Positions 52,674 to 60,710 of a DNA stretch of 64,000 bases are shown here, piece by piece. Source of the DNA: a virus; the IMG/VR virus record IMGVR_UViG_3300031419_000579. One strand, written 5' to 3'. The notes below the pieces were generated by a model, which saw nothing but the letters and a program-made list of their open reading frames with translations, searched no databases and had not been told where the DNA came from. The translations under genes and the position numbers were made by a program. Position 1 is the first letter of the stretch; every line of letters begins with the position of its first letter.

Positions 52674-52970
52674 TTAAAAATTCATAGTTACTTGAGAGCC
52701 TTCGACTGTTACCGCAGTTGAGGGCTTTTTCTTTGTCAGAATTGATGCAACCTGCCGCGCTAAATGCGCCATATCCTCATCGACCACTCCGTATTCCAGA
52801 ACAGCCAACAACATCGATATCTTCGGCACCCAGTCGCGTTTCCACCGGCTTATCTGCGCCTTATCGACGCCAACGGCCTTAGCGGTGCGCTCTGTACCCA
52901 GCAATGAGATTTTGTTGAGTAATGCGCTCTCAATGCGTAGCGCCTCATTGCGTTTGTTTGCGTGCTCCAT
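52674..52970 (-). CDS. cII: CII transcriptional activator
   Basis: RIESALLNKI...G.E.TAKAVGVDKAQISRWKRDW.PK.SMLLAVLE. Confidence 0.95.
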   Translation of the reverse strand: MEHANKRNEALRIESALLNKISLLGTERTAKAVGVDKAQISRWKRDWVPKISMLLAVLEYGVVDEDMAHLARQVASILTKKKPSTAVTVEGSQVTMNF

Positions 52971-53037
52971 AATGAATACTTGTCCTTAATGAATAGTTAG
53001 TTACGTGTGTGCACCGTGGGGTGCCACATTATTTGGT

Positions 53038-53075
53038 AGGGACGAAGCATCCCTGGTTAAGTTGTATAAAGAGCG
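53038..53075 (-). promoter_or_regulatory. nutR: boxA plus boxB-like hairpin
   Basis: CGCTCTTTATACAA then AGGGATGCTTCGTCCCT directly after cro. Confidence 0.8.
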
Positions 53076-53082
53076 GTGGTGC

Positions 53083-53316
53083 TTATGCTGCTAACGATTG
53101 TTTTTTGCTGATTTCTAAGATCTGTGTGGCAGTGAACCGGCCTTCGGATGCTTTTGCGATCAGTTCTGCGTAATTCGTTTCCCCAGTGAAATCAGTTCGG
53201 GGAAGAGTTCCGCGTTCAATCCATTTGTAAATGGCCTTCGGCGTGCGACCGCAAGCGTTAGCAACCACCGAGACTTTTACTAACTTGATAACGTCTCCAA
53301 GAGCAGGTGTTTGCAT
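53083..53316 (-). CDS. cro: Cro (HK022-like, 77 aa)
   Basis: VANACGRTPKAIYKWI..G.LPRTDFTGETNYA. Confidence 0.9.
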   Translation of the reverse strand: MQTPALGDVIKLVKVSVVANACGRTPKAIYKWIERGTLPRTDFTGETNYAELIAKASEGRFTATQILEISKKQSLAA

Positions 53317-53333
53317 AATGAATACTCCATTAA

Positions 53334-53405
53334 TGAACTCAAAGTACATTATATGCAGGAACTGAAAGTACAATCAAGTGCAGATACTATTGAACTTATG
53401 GTTCA
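53334..53405. promoter_or_regulatory. OR operators (three 15-bp sites: 53334-48, 53358-72, 53391-405)
   Basis: TGAACTCAAAGTACA, GGAACTGAAAGTACA, TGAACTTATGGTTCA; the last equals the HK022 consensus TGAACCATAAGTTCA on the other strand, as I recall it. Confidence 0.85.
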
Positions 53406-54108
53406 AGAAGAAAAAGTGCGTAAAAACTTCTCCCTCAGGCTGGCACTGGCTTGTGAAATGGCGGGATTAGCAAGTCATGGGCAACAGATAAGGATCGCTA
53501 AGGCTATGGGGGTGACTCCAAAGGCCGTGAGCAAATGGTTCAATTCTGAGTCCATGCCTCGTCGTGGAAAAATGTATGAGCTTGCAGAATATCTCGGAAC
53601 GACAGTATCTTTCCTTGTGGGAGATACTACTGAGGATGGGATTGTGCGTGACTCATTGAAAAAGAAAGATAGTTATTTTCGCGTTGATGTTTTTGATATC
53701 CAGGCAAGTGCAGGAAGTGGTGTCATGGTCAGGGATGAGTTCGTAGAGACAATTAAATCTATCGAATATTCTAATGAGGAGGCACAACTCATTTTTCATG
53801 GGCGCCCAGCCGAAAGCATCAAAATGATTGCTGTTAATGGCGACTCAATGTCAGGTACTTTCGAGCCACGTGATCAGATCTTTGTTGATGTGGGAGTGGA
53901 TTTTTTTGATGGTGACGGCATCTACATTTTTACCATTGAAGATAAACTCTACATCAAACGACTTCAGCTGCAGTTTGACCGGCTAGCCATCATTTCCGAC
54001 AACAAAAAATATGAAACTTGGCATATGGATAAAGAGAAGATCAGCATGATACGTATCATCGCGAAAGTCTTAGTTAGCCAGTCAAGAGCCTACATATTTC
54101 ACAGTTAA
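53398..54108 (+). CDS. cI: CI repressor (HK022-like, S24 peptidase; 236 aa)
   Basis: FSLRLALAC...VTPKAVSKWF..ES.PR; QASAG cleavage site, VNGDSM Ser, YIKRL Lys. Confidence 0.95.
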   Translation: MVQEEKVRKNFSLRLALACEMAGLASHGQQIRIAKAMGVTPKAVSKWFNSESMPRRGKMYELAEYLGTTVSFLVGDTTEDGIVRDSLKKKDSYFRVDVFDIQASAGSGVMVRDEFVETIKSIEYSNEEAQLIFHGRPAESIKMIAVNGDSMSGTFEPRDQIFVDVGVDFFDGDGIYIFTIEDKLYIKRLQLQFDRLAIISDNKKYETWHMDKEKISMIRIIAKVLVSQSRAYIFHS

Positions 54109-54157
54109 AGCCCAGTGGCCGGAAGAGACGTTCAGTTTGAAAGTAAACAGGTGAATT

Positions 54158-54370
54158 ATGGATGATGCAGATTTAGCACAAGCACGCGAAGAAGCACATT
54201 TGTCCGCTTCTATGTCAGCACGCGTTCCCCGATTAGTGAGCAGAGATGGCAAGTGCATCTGGTGCGAAGATGAGCCAGTGGTTGCCGATACAGCGTTCTG
54301 CTCTGCTGAATGTGGAGAGGATTACCATAAGCATAAGCGTGAGATGAAGCAGCGTATTGCTGGCGAGTAG
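54158..54370 (+). CDS. Small TraR-like/C4 zinc-binding protein
   Basis: MDDADLAQARE acidic N-terminal helix; CIWC...FCSAEC. Confidence 0.65.
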   Translation: MDDADLAQAREEAHLSASMSARVPRLVSRDGKCIWCEDEPVVADTAFCSAECGEDYHKHKREMKQRIAGE

Positions 54371-54400
54371 TGCACAGAAGAGCGAGTAGTGCACAGAAGA
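54363..54400. repeat. Perfect 19-bp tandem duplication GCGAGTAGTGCACAGAAGA
   Basis: 54363-54381 equals 54382-54400. Confidence 0.95.
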
Positions 54401-54455
54401 GACATTCGGCGAGATAAAAAACTAATATCTTAAATTTATTCAGGATAAAAATTCA

Positions 54456-54998
54456 GTGGCTAAGAAAGATGATTTCAGGCCTACTCAAAAGCAAGTTAAT
54501 GATGCCATTAGCGTTCCAAAAATAGTCACCTTCTCTGGCGCGTCTTGGAATGCTAGCGAAGGCAGAACGCCGATTTGGTATAAGCTTGACCTAAAAGCTT
54601 TTGATGGCAATGGGAACCCTTTAGCTGGCATAAGATTCATGCTGCATTGGCGTTATCCGATTGTCGAAGGTGTAGATATTGTCAAACTTTCTTATGTAAT
54701 GTTTCTGCATGATCGGAGGCTATTCGCTCTGGATCCATATCCGGCCGACAACAAACCTCACCGCAACAGAGCAAAAGTAGATCATCCGGATTTTGTTGAA
54801 GTAGCCCTTGGCTCTCATTACCACATGTACTTTGAGTCCGCAGCGGAAGAAATCGCCTTGAAATTGGATGTCGACATTAAACCAGACGACTTCTTTGGCT
54901 ACTGGAATTACTTCTGTTCTAAGCTTAATATAACTTACAAAGGCAACCCACCTCTGCCACATCAAGACAACTCAGGCCAGCTATCATGGGAAATGTAA
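54456..54998 (+). CDS. Uncharacterised protein with His-rich motif (GTG start), gene 1 of rex-position cassette
   Basis: RLFALD....KPHRN...GSHYHMY; 13-nt overlap with next gene. Confidence 0.75.
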   Translation: MAKKDDFRPTQKQVNDAISVPKIVTFSGASWNASEGRTPIWYKLDLKAFDGNGNPLAGIRFMLHWRYPIVEGVDIVKLSYVMFLHDRRLFALDPYPADNKPHRNRAKVDHPDFVEVALGSHYHMYFESAAEEIALKLDVDIKPDDFFGYWNYFCSKLNITYKGNPPLPHQDNSGQLSWEM

Positions 54999-55762
54999 CG
55001 TGTTCAACAGTCATATCTAAGCTCGGGTTCGAATGTCACCCAATGAGCGATACTCTGCTGCGCGTCATTAGCCCATTCACTTACTATGATGATAGCGAGC
55101 AGATCAGTGTGTTTGTCCAAGAGATGAGTGGCCAGTACCGCATTACTGACTACTGCGACACATTGATGAATATTGAGTCTCGAGGGATAAACCTGACAAA
55201 GCGAAAAATCGATTTGATCCGGACATCTTTAGCCTCTCAAGGTGTGACACTGAACGAGTCTGGTGAGATTTCGGCATGGGCAACCGAAAACAATGTTGGG
55301 TCAATGACTGCAAATGTCATTCGAGGTGGACTGCTTGCTTCAGCTCAATCAGCAGAGTGGTATGCAGAAGTTAAAGATGATCGGTTTGAAAAGTGTGTCA
55401 TTAGTTACCTGAAATCACAGGGGTTAGGGTCAAGGCTTTCTCTTAAAGAAAAGGTCAGAGGAATAAGCGGACACGACATAACGATTCCCATAACTCTCAG
55501 GCAGAAATCTAATCTTCTTACACCTAAGAGGGGATTTACTGTAAGCCTCTCGGGATCAAGAGGTTGGAATACAGCTCACTCTACAGTGGGAAAGATTGTT
55601 GACATCAGTCACTCGGTACCTCACGTCAGCAATAGATTCGTCATTGTCGATAGCGAAGGGTTGAGTCCTGAGCTGCAGCAACTGGCATTATTGTTCAACG
55701 ATAGTGCTCTTGTACTTCCTTTCCATAACAGGGATAGTTGGATTGAAACCTTAGTTGCCTAG
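54986..55762 (+). CDS. DUF1828-like protein, gene 2 of rex-position cassette
   Basis: VISPFTYYDDSEQISVF...YRITDYCDTL motif; C-terminal alpha/beta domain with VRGISGH. Confidence 0.75.
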   Translation: MGNVTCSTVISKLGFECHPMSDTLLRVISPFTYYDDSEQISVFVQEMSGQYRITDYCDTLMNIESRGINLTKRKIDLIRTSLASQGVTLNESGEISAWATENNVGSMTANVIRGGLLASAQSAEWYAEVKDDRFEKCVISYLKSQGLGSRLSLKEKVRGISGHDITIPITLRQKSNLLTPKRGFTVSLSGSRGWNTAHSTVGKIVDISHSVPHVSNRFVIVDSEGLSPELQQLALLFNDSALVLPFHNRDSWIETLVA

Positions 55763-55763
55763 T

Positions 55764-55788
55764 AACCCGGCCACCGCGCCGGTTTTTT
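55764..55788 (+). terminator. Intrinsic terminator closing the cI-cargo transcript
   Basis: ACCCGGC-caccgc-GCCGGTT followed by T tract. Confidence 0.7.
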
Positions 55789-55906
55789 GTGCCTGCTGGC
55801 CGATAACGCTTGTTAAATCTCAAAAATCGATTCATTAAAAAAAATTGTCAGTTCCATAGTTAGCAGCTACCTTTACTTTGTCTACATCTGGAGTTACATA
55901 TACCCA

Positions 55907-55974
55907 ATCCTGATGTGGCGTAATGAATTGGCATTCATTTCACCCGCTCAGCTCACCATGAGCGGGTTTTTTTT
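55907..55974 (+). ncRNA. Candidate ~70-nt two-hairpin sRNA
   Basis: TTTACT-17-TACATA upstream; AATGAAT/ATTCATT hairpin; ACCCGCTCA/TGAGCGGGT terminator with T8. Confidence 0.35.
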
Positions 55975-56354
55975 AATAAATTACATGTTGCCACTTCGAA
56001 TTAAAGCTACTCACTGCCTGTCCGTGCTGCCCTATACAGCCGAATATCAATCCCGCTACTTGCCGGTACATTAATCAGATTACCTTTCATCAGTACCATC
56101 TCACCGCCATCACTCAGTTTTGTTTGCGATGAAACATGCGAAGGATAACTACATTTCGCCCGGGTTGGTTCAAGCCCCCCAACTCTGTACGCAACTCTCA
56201 CCCACCACCTGCACTAAATCCCTTCCCTTGCACTTTTTCGATACTCCTGCGTCCAAGGAGCAGCGCTTAATGCGCTTGAATTGGGCTTGGTGAAAAATAA
56301 ATTACCTTTAAAGTCATGAGGATGAACCAAAATCGAGAAAACACACACCGATAT

Positions 56355-56393
56355 TGTACTTTTGGTACTTGATATTCATGAACCAATAGTACA
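56355..56393. promoter_or_regulatory. OL operators/pL
   Basis: TGTACTTTTGGTACT (56355-69) and TGAACCAATAGTACA (56379-93) match the OR motif. Confidence 0.8.
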
Positions 56394-56435
56394 TTATCTT
56401 TCCATAAGCACGACGCAGCCCACCGCAAAGTGCAA

Positions 56436-56472
56436 GCTCTTTAACAATCAGGAATGGGGATGATTCGTCCCC
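56436..56472 (+). promoter_or_regulatory. nutL: boxA plus boxB-like hairpin
   Basis: GCTCTTTAACAA then GGGGATGATTCGTCCCC. Confidence 0.8.
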
Positions 56473-56610
56473 GCCAAAGTGCAGTTGGCTTTGGGAAAGA
56501 GAGAGGTGGAGCTTACGGCGCGAGTTTACCGTCGGACCTGAGAAGCCTCTTAAATTCGGAAACGTCACGGGTTCCGGCTCTTTCACCCAAGCCAATTACC
56601 GGAGGTATTT

Positions 56611-56883
56611 ATGAAGGCACGCGAAATCAAAAAGCTGCGTCGAGCCAAAGAGTATCGCTCCAGGAACGCCGCAGAGAATCGTTTTGAGCAGAAGCTTTTA
56701 ACAGCAATGTCTGGCTGCAGCAATCGAGTACTTAAAGCAGTAGAGAGTCCGAGTATTCGCGAAGTGAAAGAGGTTGAATTTGTTACCCGGGAGAACCCTG
56801 AGTACCGGAAGGTGAATAACCCTTACGGCCAGCTTACTAACGCCAGGCAGAAAATGCGCGGGTGCTGCATTCCACTTATATGA
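56611..56883 (+). CDS. N: N antiterminator
   Basis: Basic N-terminal motif; C-terminal RQKMRGCCIPLI like lambda N RQKIKGKSIPLI; first gene after pL/nutL. Confidence 0.85.
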   Translation: MKAREIKKLRRAKEYRSRNAAENRFEQKLLTAMSGCSNRVLKAVESPSIREVKEVEFVTRENPEYRKVNNPYGQLTNARQKMRGCCIPLI

Positions 56884-56891
56884 GGTGAGAC

Positions 56892-57185
56892 ATGGAGAGT
56901 ATAGGTAAATTAGTAGTATCGGTTAGCTTCGATACTACTGAATTAAGAAATCAGATTAATGATTTACGGCAGTTACTTAATTCATCGCTTGAATGCTTTC
57001 CTGACTATATCGTTGAGATGATTCTGCGCAGTCTTCCTGCTGTGCTCGAGGATATCGTCCTGTGTAATAACTCTCCCGCAACCGGCACAGGCCTTGATAT
57101 TGTTCATAGTGTAAGGTTTGGCACGAAATACGAAAGACTCGCTGCCGCAATCAGGGCAAGAAAACTGAGCACGGATACTCTCTGA
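56892..57185 (+). CDS. Hypothetical protein overlapping an antisense ORF
   Basis: GAGGTG RBS; follows N. Confidence 0.5.
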   Translation: MESIGKLVVSVSFDTTELRNQINDLRQLLNSSLECFPDYIVEMILRSLPAVLEDIVLCNNSPATGTGLDIVHSVRFGTKYERLAAAIRARKLSTDTL

Positions 57186-59021: not shown

Positions 59022-59176
59022 CACTGGAAGATATCGATGCAGATGAATGTTTCATTAGCATGATGAGCGCAATCATCGAACCTATGACATTCGAACTGGC
59101 GCAGCAGGAAGCTAACGCCGATTACCGCACGGAACAGCAGGCAGAGCGAATGGGAGTTAACTATGGAGGTCTATAA
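59018..59176 (+). CDS. Hypothetical protein (52 aa)
   Basis: ATGA-coupled; acidic. Confidence 0.55.
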   Translation: MTLEDIDADECFISMMSAIIEPMTFELAQQEANADYRTEQQAERMGVNYGGL

Positions 59177-59777
59177 GGCAATCAGCGCAGTAGCAAAGGA
59201 GATGGCTGAACAGGGCATCAGCAAGGACCGCGAGAACCGGCAGCAAGGGTTTAGCTTTAGAGGTATTGACCAGGTTTATAACGCGCTGGCTCCAATGCTG
59301 GCGAAGCATGGACTTGTCATCCTTCCGCGCATCACCGAGAGAACCGTGACAGAGCGAACCACGAAGACTGGCGGCGTCTTGTTCTATGTTGTGGTTAAGG
59401 CCGAGTTTGATTTCGTCGCCACTGAAGATGGAAGTAAGCACACGGTTATCACCTATGGTGAAGCCATGGATAGCGGCGATAAGGCCACCAACAAAGCAAT
59501 GTCTATCGCTTATAAGTACGCGGCATTTCAGGCGTTCTGCATTCCTACCGAGCAGACCGCAATCGATGCTGACGCTGAAGTACACCACGTAGCGGCGCGT
59601 TCACATGATGACATTCTTGCTGACTTCACTGCGCAGGCGGCAGAGTGCTCAACGCTTGACGACCTCAAGGGAATTTATAAACCAGCCTGGAATGCACTTG
59701 CTTCCTCAGCTGATCATCAACAGAAGTGCGTCGAAGTGTTTAAAACCCGTGGCGCAGAACTTAGCAAGGCGGCATAA
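59163..59777 (+). CDS. erf: ERF-family ssDNA annealing protein
   Basis: I.KDREN.QQGFSFRGID...GEAMDSGDKATNKAMSIAYKYA. Confidence 0.92.
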   Translation: MEVYKAISAVAKEMAEQGISKDRENRQQGFSFRGIDQVYNALAPMLAKHGLVILPRITERTVTERTTKTGGVLFYVVVKAEFDFVATEDGSKHTVITYGEAMDSGDKATNKAMSIAYKYAAFQAFCIPTEQTAIDADAEVHHVAARSHDDILADFTAQAAECSTLDDLKGIYKPAWNALASSADHQQKCVEVFKTRGAELSKAA

Positions 59778-60245
59778 ATGACCCATTTAAGCGGCATGCT
59801 CGATAGATTTCACAGCGGCTATGAAAAATGCCCGACAAGCGGCTGCTGGAACTCCAAAAAGGCCAATAACAAAGGAGGCTATACAAAGTTTGTAGCCTTT
59901 GGTCGAACGCTTCTTTTTCATCGCGTCTCATACGAGCTTTATCATGGACCAATCCCCGGCACCATGATGGTTTGCCATAGGTGTGATAACCCCGCATGTG
60001 TAAATCCTGACCATTTATTCCTTGGGACGGCCCAAGACAACATGGACGACAAGATTGCAAAGGGTCGTCATAAAGGAGCGCAGGGAGGGGAGCGACATCC
60101 TGGCTCAAAGTTAACTTCATGGCAAGTGAGTGAGCTGAGAGCCCGTCTTAGCCGGGGAGAAAACCAATACTCGTTAGCTAAAGAGTTCGGTGTTTCTCAG
60201 TCAATAATCAGCAACATCAAAACAGGGAAAAGGTGGTCATTATGA
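59778..60245 (+). CDS. Free-standing HNH endonuclease
   Basis: [35 protein letters not shown]. Confidence 0.92.
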
Positions 60246-60697
60246 GTTCTCGCGGCGTTAATAAAGTCATCCTGGTCGGCAACCTTGGTCAGGACCCTGA
60301 AATTCGATACATGCCAAATGGCGGCGCGGTCGCAAACATCACACTGGCTACTTCGGAGTCGTGGCGGGATAAGCAATCGGGCGAAACAAAAGAAAAGACA
60401 GAGTGGCATCGCGTGGTGCTGTTCGGAAAGCTGGCAGAAGTGGCGGGCGAATACCTTCGTAAAGGCTCACAAATCTACATTGAGGGTAAGCTGACAACAC
60501 GCAAATGGACAGACCAGGCTGGCGTCGAAAAGTATACAACCGAGATTCATGTAAACGTTGGCGGCACCATGCAGATGCTTGGAGGAAAGCAGCAGGAATC
60601 TGAATCAGGCCAAGCAAAGCCCGCTGCGAAAAATCGTCCACCGCAGCAATTTAATAATGAGCCGCCAATGGATTTTGATGATGATATTCCTTTCTGA
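60242..60697 (+). CDS. ssb: Single-stranded DNA-binding protein
   Basis: [23 protein letters not shown]...DFDDDIPF. Confidence 0.97.
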
Positions 60698-60710
60698 GAA
60701 TGGAGAAGTA

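What the first reader, a model, noticed from the sequence alone, without database searches (positions are those of the whole stretch)
54456..55788. Two-gene DUF1828-type cassette occupying the rexAB slot: second candidate defence system
Seen: two overlapping intact genes co-oriented with cI, between cI and pL, closed by a terminator. Protein 1 has a compact His-rich motif (KPHRN...SHYH). Protein 2 has the DUF1828-like SPF..D.I...ITD..TL motif and an alpha/beta C-terminal domain. Known: lambda rexA-rexB lie here, are transcribed with cI and abort heterologous phages. Inference: lysogen-expressed sensor-effector or toxin-antitoxin pair of uncharacterised mechanism, possibly a metal-dependent nuclease.
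Basis: partly seen in the sequence, partly recalled or inferred. Interest (0 to 1): 0.75.

Follow-up and report, generated by a model that had tools for sequence, protein, structure and literature searches.

The report
Untested two-gene cassette in rexAB slot
Two overlapping, strongly conserved genes sit behind the repressor gene of a lambda-like prophage, where phage lambda keeps rexAB; they are probably an anti-phage module made by the dormant phage, but two published computer screens already flagged relatives, I found no experimental test of it, and this scan has met the same cassette many times.

Summary
Gene A (54456-54998, 180 aa) and gene B (54986-55762, 258 aa) overlap by 13 nt. They follow cI on the same strand, end at a conserved terminator (55767-55788) and lie upstream of an OL/pL-like site and an N-like gene.

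The cassette is a discrete swappable module. Homology to E. coli prophages runs exactly over 54453-55794. A and B are adjacent in 23 of 23 related loci, behind several repressor types.

A is a divergent DUF6978 protein with three family-wide histidines (H102, H121, H123) and no solved-fold match. B has a DUF1828 domain with a YbjN/T3SS-chaperone-like fold, then a PD-(D/E)xK-fold domain. In this clade that domain has lost the two aspartates conserved in distant relatives (C137, P168).

A complex model supports A-B binding (0.75 against 0.02 for the best control).

The pair is a distant member of PADLOC's untested candidate PDC-M24. Distant relatives sit inside or beside restriction-modification genes. 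DefensePredictor lists the CFT073-type homologues as predicted, untested defence genes.

The pair shares the slot with RexAB but not the make-up: there is no homology and no membrane segment.

The scan found this cassette earlier in at least 20 other genomes. It is a good candidate, not a discovery.

The parts
53311..54108 (+). cI-type repressor. The longest ORF starts at TTG 53311. Gene callers on identical contigs start it at ATG 53353, giving 251 aa.
   Evidence: Pfam HTH_3 8e-8 and Peptidase_S24 6e-18; phrog_4 transcriptional repressor 8e-48; gene call of 251 aa in L003-L006.
54158..54370 (+). 70-aa DksA/TraR-like zinc-finger gene between cI and the cassette. It is not part of the cassette and is absent at this place in the relatives outside the window's own phage (P. 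latae, E. coli).
   Evidence: phrog_54 DksA-like zinc-finger 9e-8. Homology to P. latae starts only at 54388 and to E. coli at 54453.
54453..55794 (+). Extent of the mobile cassette: ribosome-binding region, gene A, gene B and terminator.
   Evidence: blastn to E. coli prophage loci covers exactly 54453-55794 at 73% identity, with unrelated flanks. A contig of run X20 matches 54447-55788 and then runs on unlike the window on both sides.
54456..54998 (+). Gene A, 180 aa, soluble. A divergent DUF6978 protein with conserved R88, D93, H102, N104, H121 and H123.
   Evidence: Pfam DUF6978 E 1.4e-3, below the cut-off; 12 of 19 family members hit it at E<=0.01. Shape match to a DUF6978 cluster: TM 0.70/0.89, rmsd 1.2 over 132 residues. 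hhalign to distant partners: 84%, E 7.6e-6. Invariant H121/H123 and near-invariant H102. No hydrophobic segment.
54986..55762 (+). Gene B, 258 aa, soluble. Residues 1-127 form the DUF1828 domain (YbjN/T3SS-chaperone-like fold). Residues 130-258 form a DUF1829-like PD-(D/E)xK-fold domain without the aspartates conserved in distant relatives.
   Evidence: Pfam DUF1828 1.2e-12; PADLOC PDC-M24B 7e-8. Fold matches 8q8o_B Z 11.3 and 3cxj Z 10.0 (N domain); Cdn1 9.2, PspGI 9.1, Can2 9.1, AF1548 9.0 (C domain). hhalign to distant relatives: 96.5%, E 7.6e-10. P168 and C137 stand where distant relatives have Asp.
55767..55788 (+). Intrinsic terminator that closes the cassette.
   Evidence: GC stem followed by T6. 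The hairpin and T run are kept in 8 relatives, with a different stem sequence in Xenorhabdus and Providencia. The folding energy alone is not exceptional (z 0.25).
56353..56400 (+). OL/pL-like site: promoter-like hexamers plus operator words shared with the cro/cI region.
   Evidence: TTGATA-17-CATTAT. The words AAAGTACAAT and AGTACATTAT are shared with 53343-53375.
56611..56883 (+). N-like first gene of the leftward early operon. This is inferred only.
   Evidence: A 90-aa ORF with an Arg-rich N-terminus, at the place and of the size of the N_peptide genes in E. coli loci. It has no Pfam or PHROG hit of its own.

Best explanation
The cassette is a self-contained, horizontally swapped two-gene module (A, B, terminator). 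It rides in the repressor operon of a lambdoid prophage in the slot where lambda keeps rexAB. It is a divergent member of the DUF6978 + DUF1828/DUF1829 pair family that PADLOC lists as candidate PDC-M24.

Its most likely role is anti-phage protection of the lysogen, in the manner of a toxin-antitoxin-like or abortive-infection pair.

Proposed working, all inferred:
- A and B are made together by translational coupling and form a complex.
- In that complex the chaperone-like DUF1828 domain of B sits on the face of A that carries the conserved His triad.
- B's C-terminal nuclease-fold domain lacks the two aspartates conserved in distant relatives, so it acts as a sensor or binding module, not a cutter.
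- An infection cue changes the complex and frees or activates A, a putative metal-dependent enzyme. A then harms the infected cell or the invader.

Shown here: the anatomy, the module borders, the strict pairing, purifying selection, the folds and the restriction-modification neighbourhood of distant relatives.

Not shown: expression in the lysogen, binding, toxicity, any protection, and which protein is the effector.
For: Slot and operon layout.

Same pair in the cI-to-N slot of E. coli phages ev207, ev017, PhiR63_2 and PhiR57_1 and of many prophages with different repressor, cro and replication modules.

A and B adjacent in 23 of 23 loci.

Module borders at 54453-55794.

dN/dS 0.06 and 0.035.

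Homology to PDC-M24: PADLOC B 7e-8; hhalign 96.5% for B and 84% for A; a canonical pair found with PDC-M24B 9e-103 and PDC-M24A 2e-56.

Distant pairs lie between hsdS and hsdR, beside MmeI-type enzymes or beside N6/N4 methylases in 5 of 7 loci whose neighbours I scanned. This matches how PADLOC derived its 145 untested candidates (10.1101/2024.01.29.577857).

DefensePredictor lists both CFT073-type homologues as predicted defence genes, with log-odds 4.9-6.3 (PMC13092281).

The complex model supports binding but does not show it. The score is 0.75 and the best of 3 controls is 0.02. In calibration the mark was reached by 58 of 80 solved complexes and 2 of 110 mismatched pairs; those counts hold only roughly because my own alignments were used. 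Runs 1 and 2 share 92% of contacts, run 3 shares none, and partner pLDDT is at least 80.

The three histidines of A are conserved across the wide family. A's residues 100-105 and 123 and B's residues 35-39, 64-69 and 91-94 lie in the predicted interface.
Against: No experiment on any member was found. DefensePredictor's tables of tested units do not contain it.

The PADLOC match of A is only E 0.035, and Pfam DUF6978 is below its cut-off.

One of three complex runs gave a different interface. Interface residues are only weakly more conserved than the rest (p 0.03-0.16).

A has no solved-fold match, so nothing points to a chemistry (best Z 5.0).

The only transcript evidence is two short contigs of a roughly 92%-identical relative in a seed metatranscriptome. 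DNA carry-over cannot be excluded.

Guilt by position and by association does not separate defence from addiction or regulation.
Confidence: 0.55

Rival explanations
1. Defence, but with the roles reversed. B is the effector: a nuclease using a non-canonical site, for example the invariant S161-G162-H163 loop with K181, D206 and D222. A is its sensor or regulator.
For: B's C domain has a restriction-endonuclease fold: PspGI Z 9.1, BsoBI 8.6, Can2 9.1. Its title says BsoBI uses histidine-catalysed hydrolysis in this fold. H163 is invariant in the clade. In distant relatives the domain keeps an invariant Asp on helix 1 and a nearly invariant Asp on strand 2.
Against: In this clade those two aspartates are replaced by C137 (variable) and P168 (invariant). 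No (D/E)xK is seen on strand 3. Pfam DUF1829 does not hit the protein at E<=1.
Confidence: 0.15
2. A toxin-antitoxin or addiction pair that stabilises the prophage or the module, with no meaningful anti-phage effect.
For: Two small overlapping genes, a predicted tight complex, a mobile module, and a weak shape likeness of A to the TumE toxin family (TM 0.45/0.60).
Against: Distant relatives sit inside restriction-modification operons rather than on plasmids or at prophage ends. The slot in lambdoid phages is one used by exclusion genes. Two defence predictors flag it. Addiction and defence are also not exclusive.
Confidence: 0.12
3. An accessory regulator of the phage's own life cycle (lysogeny maintenance, induction or superinfection immunity tuning), or some other lysogenic-conversion function unrelated to other phages.
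For: It lies in the repressor operon. B's N domain resembles YbjN-family and regulator proteins: 8q8o_B, called a regulator of a biofilm operon, Z 11.3; AmyR Z 7.3.
Against: The same cassette serves behind several unrelated repressor types and replication modules. Distant relatives are in non-prophage restriction-modification loci. Neither fits a phage-specific regulator.
Confidence: 0.1

Closest known systems
PADLOC phage defence candidate PDC-M24 (A = DUF6978, B = DUF1828 + DUF1829). It is one of 145 untested candidates from 'guilt-by-embedding' (Payne et al. 2024, bioRxiv 10.1101/2024.01.29.577857).
   Same: Same two-gene order with overlap, and similar sizes (about 150-180 aa and about 255 aa). 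B matches PDC-M24B at 7e-8. Profile-profile homology is 96.5% for B and 84% for A. The His-x-His motif of A and the D55/E94 residues of B are shared.
   Different: A is too diverged for the PADLOC and Pfam models (E 0.035 and 1.4e-3). B's C domain has lost the two aspartates conserved in canonical members. This copy is prophage cargo in the repressor operon, not embedded in a restriction-modification locus. The candidate itself has never been validated.
Lambda RexA-RexB exclusion system
   Same: Same slot: downstream of cI on the same strand, ahead of OL/pL, closed by a terminator. It is a two-gene cassette carried by a lambdoid prophage.
   Different: There is no match to any Rex model in PADLOC. 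Neither protein has a membrane segment: maximum 19-aa hydropathy is 0.98 and 0.87. RexB is a polytopic membrane protein (established knowledge). The folds are different, so a membrane-depolarising mechanism is not expected.
E. coli lambdoid-prophage pair WP_001062368.1 + WP_000968518.1 (CFT073, phage ev207 type), listed as 'Predicted novel defense gene' in DefensePredictor (PMC13092281, Tables S5 and S10).
   Same: Homologous pair (39% and 50% identity) in the same cI-to-N slot. The paper's HHblits annotation gives DUF1828 + DUF1829, clan PDDEXK.
   Different: It is a different subclade (185 and 250 aa). It is only predicted: it is absent from that paper's tables of tested and validated units.
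HipAD (DS-6) defence system, whose second protein carries DUF3037 + DUF1829 (PMC13092281).
   Same: A validated two-protein defence in which a DUF1829-type domain sits in the non-enzymatic partner. That partner is predicted to bind the effector and DNA. This gives a precedent for B as regulator, not cutter.
   Different: The effector there is a HipA-type kinase. No DUF6978 or DUF1828 is involved, and no sequence match was tested or claimed here.

Membership tests
PADLOC PDC-M24 (candidate system) | Component A matches the PDC-M24A / Pfam DUF6978 models | tested here: inconclusive
   PADLOC gives E 0.035 and 0.043. Pfam DUF6978 gives E 1.4e-3, 19.4 bits against a cut-off of 29.6. Supporting evidence: 12 of 19 relatives hit it at E<=0.01; shape TM 0.70/0.89; hhalign 84%.
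PADLOC PDC-M24 (candidate system) | Component B matches PDC-M24B and carries DUF1828 | tested here: met
   PDLC04539 at 7.2e-8 and PDLC04540 at 5.7e-7. Pfam DUF1828 at 1.2e-12, above the cut-off. hhalign 96.5% over residues 22-222.
PADLOC PDC-M24 (candidate system) | B carries a DUF1829 (PDDEXK clan) C-terminal domain | tested here: inconclusive
   Pfam DUF1829 does not hit at E<=1. The fold is PD-(D/E)xK (Z up to 9.2) and the profile alignment spans it. The canonical member L026 does hit DUF1829 at 7e-32.
PADLOC PDC-M24 (candidate system) | A directly upstream of B on the same strand | tested here: met
   13-nt overlap here. Adjacent in 23 of 23 related loci. An upstream ORF of 148-173 aa is present in 9 of 10 full-length distant B loci.
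Lambda RexAB | Sequence homology to RexA and RexB | tested here: not met
   Scans of PADLOC, Pfam, PHROGs and NCBIfam give no Rex family for either protein.
Lambda RexAB | A membrane-spanning partner (RexB) | tested here: not met
   No hydrophobic segment: maximum Kyte-Doolittle mean over 19 aa is 0.98 for A and 0.87 for B. Both models are globular.
Lambda RexAB | Located after cI on the same strand, before OL/pL, and transcribed with cI | tested here: inconclusive
   The position is met. No terminator-like site lies between cI and A. Co-transcription could not be measured; there are only relative-derived metatranscriptome contigs.
PD-(D/E)xK nucleases | Restriction-endonuclease-like alpha/beta core fold | tested here: met
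   Residues 130-258 match Cdn1 (Z 9.2, rmsd 3.3, 111 aligned), PspGI (9.1), Can2 (9.1), AF1548 (9.0), Bax1 (8.8) and BsoBI (8.6).
PD-(D/E)xK nucleases | Acidic metal-binding residues (Asp on strand 2, (D/E)xK on strand 3, often Glu/Asp on helix 1) | tested here: not met
   The strand-2 Asp of distant relatives aligns with the invariant P168. The helix-1 Asp aligns with the variable C137. No (D/E)xK is seen on strand 3. Alignments at 12-19% identity carry some risk of error.
Type II toxin-antitoxin pairs | Two small co-transcribed genes whose products bind; one is toxic alone | not testable with these tools
   Overlap and a model that supports binding (0.75 against 0.02 for the best control; 58 of 80 solved complexes and 2 of 110 mismatched pairs reached the mark). 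Toxicity needs an experiment. Likeness of A to TumE is weak (TM 0.45/0.60).

The most novel reading that the evidence does not exclude
A and B together form a split metalloenzyme of a kind not yet described. The family-wide His triad of the DUF6978 protein (H102, H121, H123) and the family-wide acidic residues of the DUF1828 domain (D36, D55, E94) would meet at the predicted interface to build one composite active site. That site would be the effector of a new class of anti-phage system that lambdoid phages carry in place of RexAB.
Probability: 0.1. Interest if true: 0.7.

Novelty: new member of a known kind. Interest (0 to 1): 0.38.

Why it matters
If the pair protects lysogens, it would add a widespread system to the list of defences that temperate phages keep in the repressor operon. 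A relative is present in 299 of 5426 complete E. coli genomes, including CFT073, and here in a Pantoea-like plant-associated host.

It would also give a function to three domains of unknown function (DUF6978, DUF1828 and, in part, DUF1829).

The concrete gains from this window are as follows:
- A defined minimal module with borders for cloning.
- A short list of residues to mutate.
- The observation that the nuclease-fold domain has lost its acidic residues in the prophage clade, which points to the small His-motif protein as the place to look for the activity.

As it stands it is a candidate already flagged by others and seen repeatedly in this scan.

Tried and rejected
- Near-identical DNA search in the phage collection: no match.
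- Sequence search of both proteins against solved structures: nothing below E 0.25.
- Foldseek of A and of B against the PDB: no match at E<=0.001.
- All-against-all structural search for A: best Z 5.0, not meaningful.
- BFVD for A: one uncharacterised phage protein only.
- AFDB clusters for A: uncharacterised proteins only, plus one 'Suppressor of fused-like' name at 3.6e-4, which I did not follow.
- An HNH/His-Me reading of A's His motif: considered from the strand-strand-helix order. Dropped because no fold search returned such a family.
- Whole-genome search of the window's own genome: none is held.
- Literature: no paper mentions DUF1828, DUF6978, PDC-M24 or the E. coli accessions in a functional context. 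Brenes and Laub 2025 (Cell Host Microbe) is not held, so I could not check whether they tested this pair.
- RNA evidence: no RNA holder of the window's own sequence is listed. An rRNA-depleted RNA run under the same species label laid no reads, so it is no test.
- Conservation enrichment at the predicted interface: weak (p 0.03-0.16), so not used as support.
- Rfam scan of 53000-57000: only a chance-level hit (E 0.23).
- HMMs built from the narrow alignments did not reach the distant pairs. Profile-profile comparison did.
Full report
**What is there**

The region is the immunity region of a lambdoid prophage. On the minus strand lie a DnaB-type helicase, a replication initiator, a CII protein (Pfam Phage_CII, 1.3e-40) and a 77-aa Cro-like repressor. 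On the plus strand lie the following features:
- A cI-type repressor (HTH_3 + Peptidase_S24) at 53311/53353-54108.
- A 70-aa DksA/TraR-like zinc-finger gene at 54158-54370.
- Gene A at 54456-54998.
- Gene B at 54986-55762.
- A hairpin with a T run at 55767-55788.

Further downstream is a promoter-like site at 56369-56397. It lies among 10-nt words that also occur in the cro/cI operator region (AAAGTACAAT, AGTACATTAT). After it comes a 90-aa ORF with an arginine-rich N-terminus, at the place and of the size of N in E. coli relatives.

The order is therefore cI, cargo, terminator, OL/pL, N, all on one strand, as in lambda. 'The rexAB slot' is a fair description. No terminator-like site was found between cI and the end of B.

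**Are the genes real, and is the cassette a unit?**

Both proteins match phage protein families strongly: phrog_2017 at 1e-60 and phrog_1960 at 2.5e-106. Against the copy in Pantoea latae (91% and 95% protein identity), dN/dS is 0.06 for A and 0.035 for B. Against the E. coli copy, synonymous sites are saturated while the proteins stay 77% and 83% identical.

A and B are adjacent in all 23 related loci that I fetched. Nucleotide homology to E. coli prophages covers exactly 54453-55794, from three bases before the start of A to just past the terminator, with unrelated DNA on both sides. A contig from another sample matches 54447-55788 and then diverges at both ends.

The terminator hairpin is kept in eight relatives. 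In Xenorhabdus and Providencia the stem has a different sequence but the same shape.

In E. coli the same cassette follows repressors of at least four different lengths and types, with different cro and replication modules. It occupies the same slot in phages ev207, ev017, PhiR63_2, PhiR57_1 and an Stx1a phage.

A relative is present in 299 of 5426 complete E. coli genomes. In 61 of these the close type covers the whole cassette. One carrier is CFT073, where the proteins are WP_001062368.1 and WP_000968518.1.

The window's own DNA occurs in phyllosphere, seed, silage and soil samples. This fits a Pantoea-like host.

**Protein A**

A single-sequence search of 1.8 billion representatives found only 14 relatives at E<=0.001. 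The protein scores below Pfam's cut-off for DUF6978 (E 1.4e-3), but three results tie it to that family:
- 12 of 19 relatives hit DUF6978 at E<=0.01.
- The predicted structure (pLDDT 86) superposes on a DUF6978 cluster with TM 0.70/0.89 and rmsd 1.2 Å over 132 residues.
- A profile comparison with the partners of distant B proteins gives 84% probability, E 7.6e-6, with the H-x-N and H-x-H motifs in register.

Across this wide set H121 and H123 are invariant and H102 nearly so. The fold is a mostly antiparallel sheet with two helices. It has no convincing match among solved structures (best Z 5.0).

An H...H-x-H arrangement, with the pair on one strand, is what a three-histidine metal site looks like. 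That is an inference from the pattern, not a result.

**Protein B**

Residues 30-112 match DUF1828 above the cut-off. The model (pLDDT 80) has two domains:
- Residues 1-127 match YbjN-family and type III secretion chaperone structures: 8q8o_B Z 11.3, 3cxj Z 10.0, Spa15 8.7, SicP 8.3 and AmyR 7.3.
- Residues 130-258 match restriction-endonuclease-fold domains: Cdn1 Z 9.2, PspGI 9.1, Can2 9.1, AF1548 9.0, Bax1 8.8 and BsoBI 8.6.

For the 50%-identical E. coli homologue, the authors of DefensePredictor report DUF1829 (clan PDDEXK) at residues 155-241 by HHblits.

Distant relatives keep an invariant aspartate on the first helix of this domain and a nearly invariant aspartate on the second strand. 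In the window's clade these positions are C137 (variable) and P168 (invariant). Both a multiple alignment and a profile-profile alignment show this. No (D/E)xK is visible on the third strand.

So the fold is that of a nuclease, but the usual catalytic residues are missing here. The clade has instead an invariant G-x-S-G-H loop.

**Do they bind?**

The complex model supports binding but does not show it. The score is 0.75 and the best of three controls is 0.02. In calibration the mark was reached by 58 of 80 solved complexes and by 2 of 110 mismatched pairs. Those counts hold only roughly, because my own alignments were used.

Runs 1 and 2 share 92% of their contacts; run 3 shares none with either. 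Partner pLDDT is at least 80.

In the best run, the DUF1828 domain of B (residues 16-94 and 123-129) lies on A's sheet and on the loop that carries H102 and N104. A's R88 and H123 also touch. On B's side E16, D35, D36, E64, R66-I68 and E94 are in the interface. Interface residues are only weakly more conserved than the rest (p 0.03-0.16), so I do not count that as support.

**What family is it?**

PADLOC's models for candidate PDC-M24 hit B at 7e-8 and A at only 0.035. Using the PDC-M24B model on 401 genomes of the phylum, I found matches in 13. Of the 10 loci with a full-length B-type gene, 9 have an ORF of 148-173 aa directly upstream on the same strand.

The best of these loci is a canonical member: A matches DUF6978 at 2e-44 and PDC-M24A at 2e-56, and B matches DUF1828 plus DUF1829.

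The neighbours of the distant pairs were as follows:

| Locus | Neighbouring genes |
|---|---|
| L026 | Between hsdS and hsdR of a type I system |
| L029 | MmeI-type enzyme |
| L030 | MmeI-type enzyme; MobA/MobL relaxase on the other side |
| L027 | N6/N4 DNA methylase |
| L036 | N6/N4 DNA methylase |
| L033 | Reverse transcriptase |
| L028 | Transposase |

This agrees with the source of the PDC list. Payne et al. derived 145 untested candidates from genes embedded in Hma, BREX, DISARM and type I restriction-modification loci (bioRxiv 10.1101/2024.01.29.577857).

Independently, DefensePredictor (PMC13092281) lists both CFT073-type proteins as 'Predicted novel defense gene', with log-odds 4.9-6.3, in Tables S5 and S10. 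They do not occur in the tables of tested and validated units. I found no paper that tests the pair. One relevant paper, Brenes and Laub 2025, is not held.

**How it most likely works**

The evidence supports a lysogen-expressed two-protein module with a defence role. My confidence is about 0.55 for the role and much lower for any detail. The model I commit to has four steps:
1. A and B are made together and form a complex.
2. B's chaperone-like domain covers the His-site face of A.
3. B's degenerate nuclease-fold domain senses or binds something from the invader.
4. The change releases or activates A, which acts as a metal-dependent enzyme.

There is a partial precedent for a DUF1829-type domain in the non-enzymatic partner. 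In the validated HipAD system, the DUF3037 + DUF1829 protein is predicted to bind the kinase and DNA.

The rivals are these:
- B is the effector, using a non-canonical histidine site.
- The pair is a plain addiction module.
- The pair has a phage-internal regulatory role.

Each can be separated by the toxicity, mutant and phage-panel experiments listed under next steps.

**Comparison with RexAB**

The slot and the operon layout are the same, but nothing else is. There is no homology. Neither protein has a membrane segment, whereas RexB is a membrane protein. The folds are unrelated. The cassette should not be filed as a Rex system, and a membrane-depolarisation mechanism is not expected.

**Novelty and verdict**

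The cassette is a further member of a catalogued but untested candidate family. Earlier rounds of this scan met it in at least 20 other genomes with the same reading.

This window adds four things:
- A non-E. coli, plant-associated host.
- An extra DksA-like gene wedged between cI and the cassette.
- A controlled complex prediction.
- The finding that the prophage clade has lost the aspartates conserved in the nuclease-fold domain of distant relatives, while the histidines of the small protein are universal.

It is worth an experiment but is not a surprise.

Noticed in passing
window 54113-54135 and 54363-54409: An exact 19-bp tandem duplication (GCGAGTAGTGCACAGAAGA, twice) follows the stop of the DksA/TraR-like gene. 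A related motif (CAGTGGCCGGAAGAGACGTT) follows the cI stop. The Pantoea latae relative has cI, then 45 nt, then gene A, with no DksA-like gene. The small gene therefore looks like a separate insertion into the junction, with the junction sequence repeated on both sides.
   Followed up: partly
window 54158-54370: A 70-aa DksA/TraR-like zinc-finger gene sits directly after cI inside the repressor operon. In the E. coli relatives the zf-dskA_traR gene lies far downstream in the leftward early operon.
   Followed up: partly
window 55800-56350: About 550 bp between the cassette terminator and OL/pL hold no recognised gene. They contain a strong + strand terminator (55942-55967, 9-bp stem, T8), a 64-aa minus-strand ORF (56007-56201) that gene callers accept on metagenome contigs, and a negative GC skew. 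There is no Pfam, PHROG or Rfam match. A small RNA or a small minus-strand gene is possible.
   Followed up: partly
window 53317-53375 and 56353-56400: The cro/cI region is very short (about 36 bp if cI starts at ATG 53353). It shares the operator-like words AAAGTACAAT and AGTACATTAT with the pL-like site. The pR-like promoter lies inside the 5' end of the longest cI ORF, so cI may start at 53353 and its mRNA may have little or no leader.
   Followed up: partly
window 52674-52948: In an otherwise 99% identical contig of another sample, 273 bases of the cII gene are replaced by 324 unrelated letters. This suggests a different cII allele in a near-identical prophage.
   Followed up: no
window 59163-60700: An HNH endonuclease gene (59778-60245) lies between the Erf recombinase and SSB genes of the early-left operon. 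It may be a free-standing homing-type insertion.
   Followed up: no
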